39,732 bases of DNA, from the sequence record NC_002167.1; one strand, given 5' to 3'. Position numbers and translations under genes: made by a program. The stretch is from Escherichia phage HK97. Positions 8,203-14,442 of this stretch are shown piece by piece (the stretch's first letter is position 1; each line of letters starts with the position of its first letter). The notes beneath the pieces were generated by a model. The model was not told the DNA's origin. It saw nothing but the letters and a program-made list of their open reading frames with translations, and made no database searches.

Positions 8203-8391
8203 ATGGAACCACTGGTAGTAGTGTTTGGAATATTCGGCTGGATGATAAATCTAATTGTGATTTTTTATTTATTACGGTTTAGCACAAGGGCAAATGAACA
8301 AGTTGAAGCCCTTAAAGAGATAAATAAAAAGCAAGATGCGCAAATAGATTTATTAATACAAGTCGCTCACCAAAGAAAAGACAGTTTATAA
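8203..8391 (+). CDS. moron-encoded small membrane protein (candidate superinfection exclusion, HK97 gp15-like)
   Basis: 62-aa ORF, strong SD aaggagg, one N-terminal TM helix; AT-rich compared with flanking tail genes; own terminator downstream. Confidence 0.6.
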   Translation: MEPLVVVFGIFGWMINLIVIFYLLRFSTRANEQVEALKEINKKQDAQIDLLIQVAHQRKDSL

Positions 8392-8397
8392 CTCACG

Positions 8398-8422
8398 ACC
8401 CGCTATCAAGCGGGTTTTTTTT
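8398..8422 (+). terminator. intrinsic terminator after moron
   Basis: acccgc-tatcaa-gcgggt followed by T8. Confidence 0.6.
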
Positions 8423-8434
8423 ATGGGTGAAAAT

Positions 8435-11400
8435 ATGGCTACGTTGCGCGAACTGATCATCAAAATATCTGCAAACTCTCAGTCATTCCAGTCTGAAATT
8501 TCTCGTGCTTCAAGAATGGGGAATGACTATTACCGGGTAATGCAGACTGGAGGACGCCAATCGGCCGCAGCTTCGCGTGAAACTCAGCGTGCCTTGGCTG
8601 AGGTAACTAGTCAAATAAACACCGCGAAGGCCTCAGCACTGGGAATGGCTGGTGCATTTGCTGGAGCATTTGCGACTGGTCATCTTATATCGCTGGCCGA
8701 TGAATGGAGCTCTGTTAATGCCAGGCTAAAGCAGGCTTCCCAGTCGTCAGATGATTTCACGGAGTCCCAGCGGGCGCTGATGGATATTAGCCAGCGAACC
8801 GGAACCGCCTTCTCTGATAATGCGAGTCTTTTTGCGCGTTCAGCCGCTTCTATGCGTGAATATGGCTACAGTTCAGAAGAGGTTCTGAAGGTAACCGAGG
8901 CTATATCAACAGGGCTTAAGCTGTCAGGCGCAAGCGCGTCTGAAGCGAGTTCGGTAATCACGCAGTTCAGCCAGGCTCTGGCGCAGGGTGTTCTTCGAGG
9001 CGAGGAATTTAACTCCGTCAACGAAAACGGTGATCGAGTTATCCGTGCTCTTGCCGCAGGGATGGGTGTAGCTCGTAAAGATCTGAAGGCAATGGCCGAT
9101 CAGGGGATGCTAACCGCAGATAAAGTTGTCCCGGCCCTGATAAGTCAACTTGGCACTATGCGTGGTGAATTTGAGGCAATGCCGCAGACCGTTTCTGCTG
9201 CCACGACGAAAGTCGAAAATGCTTTCATGGCATGGGTAGGTGGCGCTAATGAAGCCACTGGTGCGACAAGTACTCTTGTTGCCGTATTGAATACGGTTTC
9301 TGACAATATAGACACTGTGGCTACGGCTGCCGGAGCTTTGGCTGCGATAGGTGGAGCTCGCTATCTTGGAGGGATGTTTGGCGATCTTGGGAACCAGACG
9401 GCGCAATTAATAGATGCCAGAAAGAACGAAATTGCGCTCGCAGCTGCAAGGGCTGAATCTGCTACCCAATCACAACGCAAGGCCGCCGCCGATGCTATTG
9501 CTGCTGAGCGAGCTTACCAGCTTGCTCAGTCAGAACTTGTGCTGGCAAAGAATACTAATGCTGAGGCTACTGCCACTCAAAATGCCATATCCAAGCGCCG
9601 GGCAATGATTACAGCAAATGCGGCACTGGTACAGTCAAACAGAGCCGTTGCAGCCTCTCAGCAGGCACTTAACTCTGCAACATCAGTGCTGGGGCTTGTA
9701 AAAACTGGCGCTACGGGTCTTTTGTCGTTAGTTGGTGGTTTGCCAGGAATTTTAATGTTGGGTGCTGGGGCGTGGTACACGATGTATCAACGCCAAGAAC
9801 AAGCCAGGGAATCTGCAATCCAATATGCGGACACAATCGAGCAGGTACGAGATAATCTGAAATCAATGTCTCAGACGCAGATATCCGCCAACCTTGGACA
9901 GGCGAATATTTCACTGGATGCTCAGAATAGTGCGATTGAACAGCAGAAGCAGAAAGTTGCTGAATTATCCAATCAACTTTATAACGCAAAATTAGCAGCC
10001 AATTCTGCTTCAGAGGGGACATGGCTGTATAACGATGCGGTTGAGAAAGCCGCAGACTTTGCTTCAGAACTTGCGGTTGAAGAAGGCCGACTTGAGCAAA
10101 TGCTCAATAAAAGAAAGCAAACACAACAGTTAATAAACGACATAACTGATCAGGCTATAAATAAAACAGTAGAAATGGCTGGCGCCGTAAGTTCTCTTAC
10201 AGAGATGTATGACCGGCTGAACAAGGTTTCCAGACAGTCTACAGCAGTGTCCCCACCAAAATATGCAGGACCTGTACTTCCTGCGCTTGATAATAAGCAA
10301 CAACAAGCTATTGAGAAAGCACAGCGACAGCTTGAGCTATCTGGCCTTCAGGGTTTGGATAAGGCTCGAAAGCAGGCAGAATTCGATGCATCTGATCTGA
10401 ACCTTCCAGCTGGTTGGCGTGAGAAATATGTCAGCATGGAAGTTGAGTCTGCTAGGCAATTACAAGCAATTCGTAACTCAAGCCGCCATAAGGGTGGAAA
10501 ATCCGAGGCGGAAAAAACAGCTGATACCTATGACAAGCTGATCAAGCAGCAAAAAGAGCAGATCGCTCTGCAAGGGCAGAATACCGAGCTGGCAAAGGTT
10601 AAATATCAGGTAAGCCAGGGTGAGCTTTCTACGCTAAGTCAGGCCCAGAAAGCCGAAGTTATGCGTAATGCTGCTCTCATCGATCAGGTTAAATTGCGTG
10701 GACAACTGCGAAATTACGAAGCCAACCTTGCTGACAGTAACGCCAGCGCCCGCGCAGCCAATGAAGCGCAACTGCTGGGCTACGGGCAGGGAACCAGGTT
10801 CCGTGAAAGACTTCAGGAGCAGTTCAATCTGCGTAAGGAGTTTGAGCAGAAGAATACCGATCTTCTCCGCCAGCGTCAGGCTGGTGAAATCGACGAGACG
10901 TTCTATCAGCAGGGGCTGGCACTTAATAAGCGCTACCTCGAAGAGCGCCTGCGCGACCAGGAGGGATATTACGCAGCTTCTGATGCGCAGCGTGACGACT
11001 GGATGACGGGACTGTCTGAGGGTTATGCGAACTGGGTGGATGAAGCGACAGATTACTCCTCCATGGCAGCTGACGGGATGAAGCAGGCAATGGGTGGGGC
11101 GGTAACTTCGATTACTGACATGCTCAATGGTAACGTCGACAGCTGGAAGGACTGGGGTGTCAGCGTACTGAAGATCATCCAGAATGTTCTGGTCAATATG
11201 GCTGTTGCTAACGGCGTCAGTTCAATTGGTTCTCTCTTCAGCTTTGGCGCATCTTCCGCCGCTGCCGCCAGTAGCGGTACTGCAATTCAGAACGCTGGCG
11301 CGAACTTCACCTTTAACGCGAAGGGTAATGTTTACGACTCTCCGTCCCTGAGCGCATACAGCAATGGCGTGTTTCAGACCCCTCAGCTTTTTGCTTTTGC

Positions 11401-11704
11401 CAAAGGAGCGGGTGTGTTTGCAGAGGCTGGACCTGAAGCCATTATGCCGCTTACCCGTGCTGCTGATGGTTCGCTTGGCGTTCGGGCTGTTGGCACTGGT
11501 GGTGGTGGTCAGGCTGTATCTTCGGCTCCACAGGTTTACTCACCAATCGATGGCAACGGAAATACTTCCACGCAGACTTCACCCGGCCTTGAGCAATTTG
11601 GTGCTGATGTCGGTAAATATATTGATCAGCGATATAAGCAGAACATCATGCGAGATATTCGCCCTGGCGGTGACATCTGGAACGCAATGAAAGGAACCCG
11701 ATAA
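8435..11704 (+). CDS. tail tape measure protein
   Basis: ORF of over 1000 aa, Ala/Gln-rich coiled-coil composition, between chaperones and M/L/K; start taken as ATG 8435 (MATLREL; in-frame ATG also at 8423). Confidence 0.85.
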   Translation: MATLRELIIKISANSQSFQSEISRASRMGNDYYRVMQTGGRQSAAASRETQRALAEVTSQINTAKASALGMAGAFAGAFATGHLISLADEWSSVNARLKQASQSSDDFTESQRALMDISQRTGTAFSDNASLFARSAASMREYGYSSEEVLKVTEAISTGLKLSGASASEASSVITQFSQALAQGVLRGEEFNSVNENGDRVIRALAAGMGVARKDLKAMADQGMLTADKVVPALISQLGTMRGEFEAMPQTVSAATTKVENAFMAWVGGANEATGATSTLVAVLNTVSDNIDTVATAAGALAAIGGARYLGGMFGDLGNQTAQLIDARKNEIALAAARAESATQSQRKAAADAIAAERAYQLAQSELVLAKNTNAEATATQNAISKRRAMITANAALVQSNRAVAASQQALNSATSVLGLVKTGATGLLSLVGGLPGILMLGAGAWYTMYQRQEQARESAIQYADTIEQVRDNLKSMSQTQISANLGQANISLDAQNSAIEQQKQKVAELSNQLYNAKLAANSASEGTWLYNDAVEKAADFASELAVEEGRLEQMLNKRKQTQQLINDITDQAINKTVEMAGAVSSLTEMYDRLNKVSRQSTAVSPPKYAGPVLPALDNKQQQAIEKAQRQLELSGLQGLDKARKQAEFDASDLNLPAGWREKYVSMEVESARQLQAIRNSSRHKGGKSEAEKTADTYDKLIKQQKEQIALQGQNTELAKVKYQVSQGELSTLSQAQKAEVMRNAALIDQVKLRGQLRNYEANLADSNASARAANEAQLLGYGQGTRFRERLQEQFNLRKEFEQKNTDLLRQRQAGEIDETFYQQGLALNKRYLEERLRDQEGYYAASDAQRDDWMTGLSEGYANWVDEATDYSSMAADGMKQAMGGAVTSITDMLNGNVDSWKDWGVSVLKIIQNVLVNMAVANGVSSIGSLFSFGASSAAAASSGTAIQNAGANFTFNAKGNVYDSPSLSAYSNGVFQTPQLFAFAKGAGVFAEAGPEAIMPLTRAADGSLGVRAVGTGGGGQAVSSAPQVYSPIDGNGNTSTQTSPGLEQFGADVGKYIDQRYKQNIMRDIRPGGDIWNAMKGTR

Positions 11705-12801: not shown

Positions 12802-13512
12802 ATGCGTCAGAAAACCATAGATGCGATTATGGCGCATGCTGCAGCTGAATATCCTCTTGAGTGTTGCGGCGTGGTGGCGCAGAAAAGCCGCGTTGAACGT
12901 TATTTCCCGTGCCGGAATCTTGCCGCGGCGCCGGAGGACAATTTTGTCCTTTGCCCCGAAGACTACGCAGCTGCTGAGGACTGGGGAACGGTGATCGCCA
13001 TCGTTCACAGTCACCCTGACGCCACTACGCAGCCGAGCGAACTGGATAAAGCGCAATGCGACGCAACGCTTTTACCCTGGCATATTGTGAGCTGGCCGGA
13101 GGGGGATTTACGCACCATCCAGCCGCGCGGAGAACTGCCGCTGCTGGAGCGTCCGTTTGTGCTTGGACACTTCGACTGCTGGGGGCTGGTAATGAGCTAT
13201 TTCCGGCAAACGCATGGTATCGAGCTCCACGATTACCGGGTGGATTATCCCTGGTGGGAAAACGACTATCCGGACAATTTTTATCAGGATTGCTGGTATG
13301 AATGCGGATTCAGGGAGTTTGACGGCCCGCCTCAGGAAGGGGACCTCGTCATCATGCAGGTGCAGGCCGATAAGTGGAATCATGCCGGGATTTTACTGGA
13401 GGGTAACATGCTGCTGCACCACCTGTACGGACATCTGAGCCAGCGCGTGCCGTATGGTGGCTACTGGCAGGAAAGGACGATGAAGATTCTTAGACATCAG
13501 AATTTTATTTAA
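12802..13512 (+). CDS. tail assembly protein K-like (MPN/JAMM + NlpC/P60)
   Basis: 236-aa ORF with HSHPD JAMM-type motif and a Cys/His peptidase-like C-terminal half. Confidence 0.75.
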   Translation: MRQKTIDAIMAHAAAEYPLECCGVVAQKSRVERYFPCRNLAAAPEDNFVLCPEDYAAAEDWGTVIAIVHSHPDATTQPSELDKAQCDATLLPWHIVSWPEGDLRTIQPRGELPLLERPFVLGHFDCWGLVMSYFRQTHGIELHDYRVDYPWWENDYPDNFYQDCWYECGFREFDGPPQEGDLVIMQVQADKWNHAGILLEGNMLLHHLYGHLSQRVPYGGYWQERTMKILRHQNFI

Positions 13513-13559
13513 CAAACTGTCACTGATACTATCGTGTAGCACACAGCAAGGAGAACGAT

Positions 13560-13784
13560 ATGTATACAGTTGGGTTTGGTTGGATCTTCGTCGGTATTTT
13601 TATTGGGTTAATTCTCTGGTTTTTCATCAACCGCGCCAGCGTCAGAGCGAACAGGTAGGTTGAATTACTTGAGTCTATCGACCAGAAATTATCAAAAATA
13701 GTAGATCCAAACTTCGAGGCAAATAACAAAGACCAGTCGAAAGAAAACTACCTTGAAGAAGCAAGGAAAAAAGCTGGGCTTTGA
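13560..13784 (+). pseudogene. paralogue of the 8203-8391 moron ORF interrupted by in-frame amber
   Basis: SD aaggaga then ATG 13560; 32-aa TM peptide (MYTVGFGWIFVGIFIGLILWFF…RANR) stops at TAG 13656-13658; the same frame continues 41 codons to TGA 13782-13784; aligns to the 8203 ORF with TAG opposite its Gln codon. Confidence 0.5.
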
Positions 13785-13798
13785 GAGCGTAAATTAAC

Positions 13799-13822
13799 AA
13801 ACCACCTACGGGTGGTTTTTTT
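13799..13822 (+). terminator. intrinsic terminator after second moron
   Basis: aaccacc-tacg-ggtggtt followed by T7. Confidence 0.6.
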
Positions 13823-13833
13823 ATGGGGGCAGC

Positions 13834-14442
13834 ATGCAAGAGGTAATGACAAGAATTGAGCTAAGTGGCGTGCTAGCTAAGACATATGGAAGGGTTCATC
13901 ACCGTCTGGTTCGCACTACTGCTGAAGCCATTAATGCACTCGCGAAAACCATCAATGGATTCGAGAAATTCTTAAACACAAGCAAAGCCCGAGGGCTGAC
14001 GTATGCCGTTTATAGAGATAAAAAGAATATTGGCGTTGATGATCTCGGCTTTCCCGTCACCGGCGAAGTGATCCGGATTGTCCCTGTAGTAATAGGGAGT
14101 AAAAAGGCTGGTCTTTTGCAGACGATCTTGGGGGCCGTGCTTATTACTGCTGCTGTGTTGACTGGACCCGGCGGTATTGGCGCTGCTTTCGCTGCTGGTG
14201 GATTGACGGGGTTTGCTGCTGCCACTGGTGCCTCGTTGGTCCTCGGTGGGGTTATTCAGCTGCTTTCACCGCAGCCATCAGGCATAGCCAGTAAACAAAG
14301 CGCAGATAACCGTGCATCGTATGCGTTTGGCGGGGTAACCAACACTGCAGCGCAAGGCTACCCGGTGCCTCTGCTTTATGGTAAGCGTCGAATCGGCGGA
14401 GCGATTATTTCTGCCGGAATTTATGTCGAAGATCAACAATAA
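13834..14442 (+). CDS. tail assembly protein I-like
   Basis: 202-aa ORF with Gly/Ala-rich hydrophobic central segment, position between K and J. Confidence 0.7.
   Translation: MQEVMTRIELSGVLAKTYGRVHHRLVRTTAEAINALAKTINGFEKFLNTSKARGLTYAVYRDKKNIGVDDLGFPVTGEVIRIVPVVIGSKKAGLLQTILGAVLITAAVLTGPGGIGAAFAAGGLTGFAAATGASLVLGGVIQLLSPQPSGIASKQSADNRASYAFGGVTNTAAQGYPVPLLYGKRRIGGAIISAGIYVEDQQ

What the first reader, a model, noticed from the sequence alone, without database searches (positions are those of the whole stretch)
13529..13822. Second moron is a paralogue of the first, interrupted by an in-frame amber at a Gln-aligned codon
The AT-rich insert between K and I encodes (from ATG 13560) a TM peptide whose frame stops at TAG 13656-13658 and then continues 41 more codons to 13784. 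It aligns with the 62-aa moron protein at 8203-8391 (…RFSTRANEQVEALKEI… versus …NRASVRANR*VELLESI…), with the TAG opposite the CAA Gln codon. It could be a decaying pseudogene, a 32-aa truncated membrane peptide, or a gene made full length only in amber-suppressing hosts; supE inserts Gln, which would restore the aligned residue.
Basis: partly seen in the sequence, partly recalled or inferred. Interest (0 to 1): 0.65.

Follow-up and report, generated by a model that had tools for sequence, protein, structure and literature searches.

The report
Amber-broken YebO-family moron gene 20
A small accessory ("moron") membrane-protein gene between tail genes K and I, intact in every related phage and prophage examined, carries a single private C-to-T change here that turns a conserved glutamine codon into an amber stop; this is an ordinary fresh knockout allele, not a new kind of feature.

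Summary
ATG 13560 opens a 32-codon ORF that stops at TAG 13656-13658. The frame then runs 41 more sense codons to TGA 13782-13784.

With Gln at the stop, the 74-aa product matches Pfam YebO (PF13974), as does the 62-aa ORF at 8203-8391. Both fall in phrog_5031, and they align pairwise at E=5e-9.

In 39 related copies (6 distinct alleles; some are the same phages from different collections) the 225-nt ORF is intact. The codon is CAG in 36 and CCG in 3, never TAG. Thirty-one copies differ from the window only at base 13656.

Gln33 is invariant across 33 family members in Enterobacter, Serratia and Pantoea. The part downstream of the stop is under purifying selection (dN/dS 0.09) and keeps a conserved C-terminus. 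The orthologues checked sit at the same K-I junction.

This is therefore the orthologue of HK022 gp20 ("moron gene product") with one recent nonsense mutation. It is not a decaying pseudogene and not programmed readthrough. A Gln-inserting suppressor would rebuild the ancestral protein exactly. In non-suppressing hosts only a 32-aa membrane stub is made, cut inside the family's core motif.

The function of the intact protein is untested. Inner-membrane superinfection exclusion, as for gp15, is an analogy. Interest is low.

The parts
12802..13512 (+). Upstream neighbour: tail-tip gene K homologue (236 aa; relatives annotate it as minor tail protein K or C40-family peptidase). It ends with TAA 13510-13512.
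   Evidence: ORF list; annotations of relatives; Pfam Prok-JAB and NLPC_P60 on orthologues.
13524..13532 (+). Candidate extended -10 promoter element, TGaTACTAT (TGnTAnTAT). Inferred only.
   Evidence: The element is kept in the window, HK022 and two diverged orthologous loci, L023 and L043. The stringent two-hexamer consensus scan found no promoter here, nor upstream of the 8203-8391 ORF. A review (PMC3594210) reports that HK97 gp15, which I identify with the 8203-8391 ORF, acts when expressed from a prophage, so the scan's null result is not informative.
13549..13553 (+). Shine-Dalgarno sequence AGGAG, 6 nt before the ATG.
   Evidence: Read directly from the sequence. GGAG is conserved in orthologous loci.
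13560..13658 (+). Truncated gene 20 reading frame: 32 codons plus the amber stop. It encodes an N-terminal membrane helix (residues 5-23) and the juxtamembrane NRASVRANR.
13656..13658 (+). Amber codon TAG. Base 13656 is T here and C in every related copy, so the ancestral codon is CAG (Gln33).
   Evidence: 0 of 39 related copies carry TAG (36 CAG, 3 CCG). It is the only window-private change found at the positions between 13141 and 15115 where at least 6 relatives align.
13659..13784 (+). Former C-terminal half of gene 20: 41 codons plus TGA. It is untranslated in a non-suppressing host. There is no in-frame ATG, GTG or TTG from which translation could restart.
   Evidence: Purifying selection in orthologues: dN/dS 0.088 against L023, and differences concentrated at third codon positions. 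The ELLESID and YLEEARKKAGL motifs are conserved.
13799..13825 (+). Intrinsic terminator: an 8-bp stem AAACCACC/GGTGGTTT with a 4-nt loop, then a T-run.
   Evidence: Scan. The same site is annotated as a rho-independent terminator in HK446, HK75, mEp234, mEp235, mEpX1, HK633, HK106 and HK542.
13834..14442 (+). Downstream neighbour: tail assembly gene I homologue (202 aa).
   Evidence: annotations of relatives.
8203..8391 (+). Intact paralogue: a 62-aa YebO-family moron ORF (HK97 gene 15 type) between the tail chaperone genes and the tape-measure gene. It has its own terminator at 8397-8416 plus a T-run.
   Evidence: HK75 annotates the identical-coordinate CDS as 'similar to Bacteriophage HK97 gp15'.

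Best explanation
The insert at 13513-13833 is a self-contained accessory cassette (a 'moron') sitting between tail genes K and I. It carries the orthologue of phage HK022 gene 20. This gene encodes a 74-aa YebO-family protein with one N-terminal membrane helix and a helical, positively charged juxtamembrane and cytoplasmic tail.

In this genome a single recent C-to-T transition at 13656 changed the invariant Gln33 codon CAG to the amber codon TAG. Everything else about the gene is untouched: ribosome-binding site, start codon, the remaining 73 codons, stop codon and terminator.

Consequences (inferred):
- In a non-suppressing host, translation ends after 32 residues. The product is a membrane-helix stub cut in the middle of the family's most conserved motif (NRASVRANR|QVELLESID) and lacking the conserved C-terminus. 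It is most likely a null allele of a gene that is dispensable for lytic growth.
- In a host with a Gln-inserting amber suppressor (supE/glnV44), a fraction of ribosomes would produce exactly the ancestral protein.

The arrangement is a fresh loss-of-function allele private to this isolate or laboratory stock. It is not an old pseudogene and not an evolved recoding device.

What the intact protein does is not shown. By analogy with the paralogue gp15, it may act in the inner membrane of the lysogen against DNA entry by superinfecting phages.
For: - Private single-base change. Twelve related phages have a 225-nt ORF identical to the window except 13656 C. Seven E. coli prophages have it intact and annotated 'YebO family protein', five with CAG and two with CCG. 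Nineteen more matches from viral, genome and metagenome collections give 18 CAG, 1 CCG and 0 TAG. Pooled, that is 39 copies and 6 alleles, none with a stop (some copies are the same phages held in different collections).
- Family membership. PF13974 YebO scores 47.7 bits against a cut-off of 27. phrog_5031 matches at E=7e-41 over its full length.
- The full-length protein is the selected unit. Gln33 is invariant in 33 diverse members, and ELLESID and EEARKKAGL are conserved. For codons 34-74, dN/dS is 0.088 against L023. L043 has 6 differences downstream of the stop, 5 of them at third codon positions.
- Long residence at this site. Orthologues 66-93% identical lie between the K and I homologues in contigs labelled Metakosakonia massiliensis and Serratia fonticola and in metagenome contigs.
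- No incompatibility with the paralogue. HK633 encodes both an intact gp15-type and an intact gp20-type ORF. HK75 has both annotated as full-length CDSs. Five further phages match both cassettes at 99% or more.
- Cassette anatomy. GC drops to 0.39 and there is a terminator.
- Where the truncation falls. The AlphaFold model shows one continuous helix over residues 3-48, so the stop falls inside it.
- No phage-encoded suppressor. The window has no tRNA gene.
- Original annotation. In relatives' notes HK97 gp19 and gp21 carry consecutive protein accessions (NP_037713 and NP_037714), while HK022 has gp20 labelled 'moron gene product'. So no gene 20 was annotated in the genome this window appears to be.
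Against: - Nothing here shows whether the TAG is a true mutation or a base-calling error in this one sequence.
- I could not tell whether it arose in nature or during laboratory propagation.
- Expression of gene 20 from a prophage is not demonstrated. The consensus scan finds no canonical promoter.
- The truncated peptide keeps the membrane helix and three arginines, so residual or altered activity cannot be excluded.
- Within the closely related alleles, the few substitutions seen are mostly non-synonymous (I13F, Q33P, G73W). Recent constraint within this clade is therefore not demonstrated. The purifying-selection signal comes from deeper comparisons.
- The function of the intact protein is unknown. 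PADLOC has no model for it.
Confidence: 0.85

Rival explanations
1. Sequencing or assembly error: the phage really has CAG at 13656-13658 and gene 20 is intact.
For: The difference is a single base, and it is unique among 39 related copies. The same sequence carries other private oddities nearby. One is a -1/+1 indel pair 6 nt apart in the tape-measure gene, which looks like the kind of local misread seen in older sequences.
Against: The window has 17 private differences in about 5.6 kb of well-covered alignment, so private substitutions are not unusual for this lineage. The accession numbering quoted by relatives implies that no gene 20 was annotated, i.e. the depositors accepted the stop. 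A C-to-T change at CAG is the classic spontaneous route to amber.
Confidence: 0.07
2. The 32-aa stub (membrane helix plus NRASVRANR) is itself functional. It might retain the activity of the full protein, or act as a dominant-negative partner of gp15 or host YebO in the membrane.
For: The N-terminal helix and the R-x-x-x-R-A-N juxtamembrane residues are the region shared between the two paralogues. The start codon, ribosome-binding site and candidate promoter are intact.
Against: The stop cuts the most conserved motif in half. No natural family member among 38 homologues ends there; the only short one, P0025 (43 aa), comes from a 253-bp contig and is labelled partial by its source. The C-terminal half is under purifying selection. 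The model shows the stop inside a continuous helix.
Confidence: 0.05
3. Evolved conditional expression or programmed readthrough: the amber is kept so that full-length protein is made only at low level or only in suppressor-carrying hosts.
For: A Gln-inserting suppressor, or near-cognate tRNA-Gln misreading of UAG, would regenerate the exact ancestral protein. The base after the stop is G, a purine, which by general knowledge is the more suppression-friendly context.
Against: Recoding signals are conserved among relatives, but here the stop is absent from all 39 relatives. The phage has no tRNA gene. No Rfam match or distinctive structure lies downstream.
Confidence: 0.02
4. Old, decaying pseudogene made redundant by the paralogue gene 15.
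For: An intact paralogue is present in the same genome.
Against: There is only one lesion. The other 224 nt of the ORF, the Shine-Dalgarno sequence and the terminator are identical to functional copies. HK633 and HK75 carry both paralogues as full-length ORFs, and five further phages match both cassettes at 99% or more.
Confidence: 0.01

Closest known systems
Phage HK022 gp20 (NP_037680, annotated 'moron gene product') and its copies in HK75, HK633, HK544, HK542, HK446, HK106, mEp234, mEp235, mEp506, mEpX1 and ECP1
   Same: Same position between K and I. Same 225-nt ORF, identical at 224 of 225 bases. Same terminator and upstream region.
   Different: The window has TAG where these all have CAG at codon 33, so only the first 32 residues can be made without suppression.
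HK97 gp15 moron protein, an inner-membrane superinfection exclusion protein (Cumby et al. 2012, as summarised in PMC3594210). In this window it is the ORF at 8203-8391.
   Same: Same Pfam family (YebO) and the same PHROG. Same build: a short N-terminus, one membrane helix, then R-x-S-x-R-A-N-x-Q-V-E. Both are AT-rich cassettes with their own terminator, inserted between tail genes.
   Different: Only about 32-43% identical, with no DNA-level similarity in the ORF or upstream. The C-terminus differs: gp15 lacks YLEEARKKAGL. It sits at a different insertion site, between the chaperone and tape-measure genes. The exclusion function is demonstrated for gp15 only.
Bacterial YebO family (PF13974), small membrane proteins of Enterobacterales with unknown function
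   Same: The HMM match is above the gathering score. RefSeq names the prophage copies 'YebO family protein'.
   Different: These copies are phage-borne and lie at a fixed tail-operon site. According to PMC3594210, over-expression or deletion of E. coli YebO had no effect on HK97 growth, so family membership does not predict function.
Classical amber (CAG to TAG) mutations of phage genes, suppressible by supE
   Same: A single C-to-T transition in a Gln codon. A Gln-inserting suppressor would restore the wild-type sequence.
   Different: It lies in a non-essential accessory gene, so it gives no conditional-lethal phenotype and would go unnoticed in ordinary propagation.

Membership tests
YebO-like protein family (Pfam PF13974 / phrog_5031) | Profile-HMM score above the curated gathering threshold | tested here: met
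   The 74-aa read-through product (Gln at codon 33) scores 47.7 bits against a cut-off of 27, E=1.8e-12. The 62-aa paralogue scores 35.4 bits. Both match phrog_5031, at E=7e-41 and 5e-29.
YebO-like protein family (Pfam PF13974 / phrog_5031) | Small protein with a single N-terminal membrane helix followed by the conserved NRAS-R-AN-Q-ELLE motif | tested here: met
   Hydrophobic segment at residues 5-23. R25, S27, R29, A30, N31, Q33, L37 and I40 are invariant in 31-34 aligned members. The window's codon 33 is the stop.
Moron (sense of Juhala et al. 2000, as described in PMC3594210) | Extra DNA between genes that are otherwise adjacent, with alternative or no cargo in related genomes | tested here: met
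   The insert lies between K and I. HK140 and mEpX2 carry an unrelated 113-aa putative lipoprotein gene at the same junction. The Serratia locus L025 carries the YebO gene plus a second ORF there.
Moron (sense of Juhala et al. 2000, as described in PMC3594210) | Base composition different from the surrounding genes | tested here: met
   GC is 0.39 at 13500-13800, against 0.53-0.59 in K and 0.51-0.58 in the body of I.
Moron (sense of Juhala et al. 2000, as described in PMC3594210) | Own transcription terminator | tested here: met
   Stem-loop at 13799-13818 plus a T-run. Eight related records annotate it as a rho-independent terminator.
Moron (sense of Juhala et al. 2000, as described in PMC3594210) | Own promoter that allows expression from the repressed prophage | tested here: inconclusive
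   The consensus scan found none. A conserved extended -10-like TGnTAnTAT lies at 13524-13532. Expression itself cannot be tested with these tools.
gp15-type superinfection exclusion proteins | Lysogen or plasmid expression blocks infection by specific phages at the DNA-entry step | not testable with these tools
   Only homology to gp15 is shown. PADLOC has no model that matches either protein.
Programmed stop-codon readthrough / recoding site | The stop codon is conserved among relatives, with selection on the downstream frame | tested here: not met
   The downstream frame is under selection, but 0 of 39 related copies have the stop.
Decaying pseudogene | Several disabling lesions, or relaxed constraint relative to intact orthologues | tested here: not met
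   Exactly one difference from the commonest intact allele across the 225-nt ORF.

The most novel reading that the evidence does not exclude
The amber allele makes gene 20 a host-genotype-dependent accessory gene in a widely used model phage. In supE (glnV44) K-12 hosts the lysogen would make authentic gp20, and in sup0 hosts only the 32-aa stub. If gp20 is a second exclusion or host-modifying factor, phenotypes of lysogens of this phage would differ silently between common laboratory strains. The stub might also interfere with gp15 or host YebO in the membrane.
Probability: 0.07. Interest if true: 0.4.

Novelty: already known. Interest (0 to 1): 0.18.

Why it matters
It matters mainly as a practical note. 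The gene family, the cassette and its position are already annotated in many related phages, with HK022 gp20 labelled 'moron gene product'. The numbering quoted in relatives' records shows that the genome this window appears to be was deposited without a gene 20.

What the analysis adds:
- The ancestral codon was CAG.
- The lesion is private, single and recent.
- The intact gene is conserved at the K-I junction across several enterobacterial genera, so it probably does something useful for the lysogen.

This gives a clean natural knockout and revertant pair for testing what the second YebO-family moron does. It also flags that suppressor genotype could matter when this phage is used in exclusion experiments.

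Tried and rejected
- **Promoter scan.** The two-hexamer consensus scan found nothing upstream of either moron. By the literature, HK97 gp15, which I identify with the 8203-8391 ORF, acts from the prophage, so I treated the null as uninformative and used conservation instead.
- **Defence and naming libraries.** PADLOC and NCBIfam gave no meaningful hits.
- **RNA explanations.** Rfam at a relaxed threshold gave only sub-threshold matches: the terminator against an sRNA model, and a chance CRISPR-repeat match. I rejected an RNA-gene explanation.
- **Phage-encoded suppressor.** ARAGORN found no tRNA gene in the window.
- **DNA-level comparison of the two cassettes.** There is no similarity upstream or within the ORFs. 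Only the 3' terminator junction is alike. A recent intragenomic duplication is therefore rejected.
- **Literature.** The primary papers (Juhala et al. 2000; Cumby et al. 2012) are not held. Five full-text searches found no open-access statement about the stop codon in this gene. Prior description of the amber is therefore inferred from accession numbering, not read.
- **Reverse-strand ORFs.** The ORFs at 13529-13729 and 13675-13839 on the minus strand were considered and dismissed. Substitution patterns in orthologues follow the plus-strand frame.

Full report
**Setting.** The window is a complete 39,732-bp lambdoid phage genome of the HK97/HK022 group (Hendrixvirinae). The region under study lies in the tail operon. 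It sits between a K homologue (12802-13512) and an I homologue (13834-14442). Relatives' annotations refer to 'Gp19 [HK97]' and 'Gp21 [HK97]' for these two flanking genes.

**The observation.** Translation of 13560-13784 gives MYTVGFGWIFVGIFIGLILWFFINRASVRANR*VELLESIDQKLSKIVDPNFEANNKDQSKENYLEEARKKAGL*.
- AGGAG lies 6 nt upstream of the ATG.
- An intrinsic terminator follows at 13799-13818 plus a T-run.
- GC falls to 0.39 inside the insert, against about 0.55 in the neighbours.
- The pattern alone is not special. Twenty-six places in the window have a TAG joining an ORF of at least 25 codons to at least 35 stop-free codons.

**Paralogy with the first moron.**
- With Gln at the stop, the product aligns to the 62-aa ORF at 8203-8391 with 43% identity over 44 residues, E=5e-9.
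- The Smith-Waterman score is 81, against 23.2 +/- 4.6 for 5000 shuffles. It remains significant with the membrane helix removed (54 against 23.4 +/- 4.6).
- Both proteins pass the Pfam gathering score for YebO (PF13974): 47.7 and 35.4 bits against 27. Both match phrog_5031.
- The TAG lies opposite CAA (Gln33) of the paralogue at 8299-8301.
- The 41 residues after the stop are not significantly similar to the paralogue on their own (443 of 5000 shuffles reach the score).
- The two cassettes share no DNA-level similarity upstream or within the ORFs.
- The paralogue is 32% identical to this protein, whereas gp20-type orthologues from other genera are 47% or more.
- So this is an old paralogy, not a recent duplication within this genome.

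**Orthologues settle what the locus is.**
- Twenty-six phage records align across the whole K/insert/I region at 98.7-99.6% identity.
- In twelve distinct phages the annotated 225-nt CDS is identical to the window at every base except 13656, which is C. These are HK022, ECP1, HK544, HK446, HK75, mEp234, mEp235, mEpX1, mEp506, HK633, HK106 and HK542. The codon in all of them is CAG, Gln. HK022's copy is annotated 'gp20, moron gene product'.
- Seven E. coli chromosomes carry it in prophages, named 'YebO family protein'. Five have CAG and two have CCG.
- A pattern search that left the codon free found 15 IMG/VR contigs, one Enterobacter sichuanensis genome contig and three metagenome contigs: 18 CAG, 1 CCG and no TAG.
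- Pooled, this gives 39 copies and 6 alleles, none with a stop. Some copies are the same phages held in different collections.
- At the 5,617 positions where at least six close relatives align, the window has 17 private differences. The amber is the only one found at the aligned positions between 13141 and 15115.

**The full-length protein is the selected unit.**
- A database search returned 38 homologues, all with the YebO domain. Source names include Enterobacter, Metakosakonia, Serratia and Pantoea.
- In alignments of 31-34 sequences Gln33 is invariant. The stop falls inside the strongest motif, NRASVRANR-Q-VELLESID. The C-terminus YLEEARKKAGL is nearly invariant although the middle is variable.
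- For codons 34-74, the window against the 93%-identical orthologue L023 shows 11 synonymous and 6 non-synonymous differences, dN/dS 0.088. Against more distant orthologues the synonymous sites are saturated while dN is about 0.2.
- Differences concentrate at third codon positions on both sides of the stop.
- The three diverged orthologues looked up (66-93% identical) all lie between the K and I homologues of prophage tail modules. The cassette is therefore a long-term resident of this junction.
- The same junction holds an unrelated lipoprotein-like gene in HK140 and mEpX2. This fits the moron concept of alternative cargo at a fixed slot.

**Structure and topology.**
- Residues 5-23 form the hydrophobic helix. 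The N-terminus is uncharged and three arginines follow the helix. By the positive-inside rule this predicts N-out, C-in; that step is inference.
- An AlphaFold model built on the family alignment has mean pLDDT 71, rising above 80 for residues 11-40. It shows one continuous helix over residues 3-48 and a second, low-confidence helix over 52-71.
- The stop therefore cuts the long helix about nine residues after it leaves the membrane.

**Interpretation.**
- The locus is gene 20 of the HK022 type, carrying one recent CAG-to-TAG nonsense mutation private to this genome.
- It is not a decaying pseudogene, because there is no second lesion.
- Redundancy with gene 15 does not explain the loss. HK633 encodes both genes as full-length ORFs. 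HK75 annotates both as full-length CDSs. Five further phages match both cassettes at 99% or more.
- It is not a recoding site, because the stop is not conserved. There is also no phage tRNA and no Rfam match above threshold.
- In a sup0 host the product would be a 32-aa stub, and no in-frame start codon downstream would allow re-initiation.
- From established knowledge of E. coli suppressors, supE (glnV44) inserts Gln at UAG with partial efficiency, so it would regenerate the ancestral protein. Rare near-cognate reading of UAG by tRNA-Gln would do the same at a very low level. I cannot tell whether the mutation arose in nature or during laboratory growth.
- A base-calling error is the main rival, at about 7%. 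However, the consecutive accessions for HK97 gp19 and gp21 (NP_037713 and NP_037714), alongside HK022's gp20, show that the depositors left gene 20 unannotated.

**Function of the intact gene.** This is unknown and was not tested here.
- The only experimental anchor is the paralogue. [quoted passage not shown] It blocks infection by HK97 and HK75 without touching the outer-membrane receptors, and the block depends on the incoming phage's tail region.
- The same review says that over-expressing or deleting E. coli YebO did not affect HK97.
- A similar inner-membrane exclusion role for gp20 is therefore a reasonable guess, perhaps 40%, not a finding.

**Verdict.** The explanation is ordinary: a fresh nonsense allele of a known, annotated accessory gene. 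Its value is practical. It offers a natural knockout for studying the second YebO-family moron, and it is a reminder that host suppressor genotype could affect it.

Noticed in passing
window 13200-14140 (the K 3' end against the insert plus the I 5' end): There is a mosaic joint at the K/moron boundary. In HK446, mEp234, mEp235, mEpX1, HK106 and several prophages the last 313 nt of K are only 89-92% identical to the window. The moron and the first 300 nt of I are 99-100% identical. The cassette and I seem to travel together across phages whose K genes have diverged.
   Followed up: partly
window about 11497-11546 (3' end of the tape-measure gene 8423-11704): The window has private length differences from HK544, HK446, HK633 and HK75. 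One is an extra GGT in a GGT run. The other is a -1/+1 indel pair 6 nt apart (TTTAC-TCACCAATC against TTTACATCACC-ATC) that changes two residues. This could be real, or local misreads in one of the sequences.
   Followed up: partly
window 8408-8426 and 13808-13828: Both moron cassettes end with almost the same 3' junction, CGGGT(GG)TTTTTTTATGGG. It runs from the terminator's descending arm through the T-run into the sequence just before the next tail gene. The rest of the two cassettes shares no DNA similarity. Mononucleotide shuffles overstate the significance of T-runs, so this may be chance or a common terminator design.
   Followed up: no
L046 1043-1384 (HK140), L047 1043-1384 (mEpX2) and L025 4278-4610 (Serratia prophage): The K-I junction is a slot with alternative cargo. 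HK140 and mEpX2 carry a 113-aa ORF 'similar to putative phage-related lipoprotein' instead of the YebO gene. A Serratia prophage carries the YebO gene plus an extra 110-aa ORF.
   Followed up: no
E. coli prophage loci L018, L019 and IMG/VR locus L035, codon 33 of the gene 20 orthologue: A minor natural allele has CCG (Pro) at the otherwise invariant Gln33, together with G73W at the conserved C-terminus. This suggests a second, independently compromised or altered version of the gene.
   Followed up: no
window 13540: The window has C here, as do HK022, HK75 and HK633. Most other relatives have T. The position lies about where transcription would start from the candidate extended -10 element at 13524-13532.
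   Followed up: no
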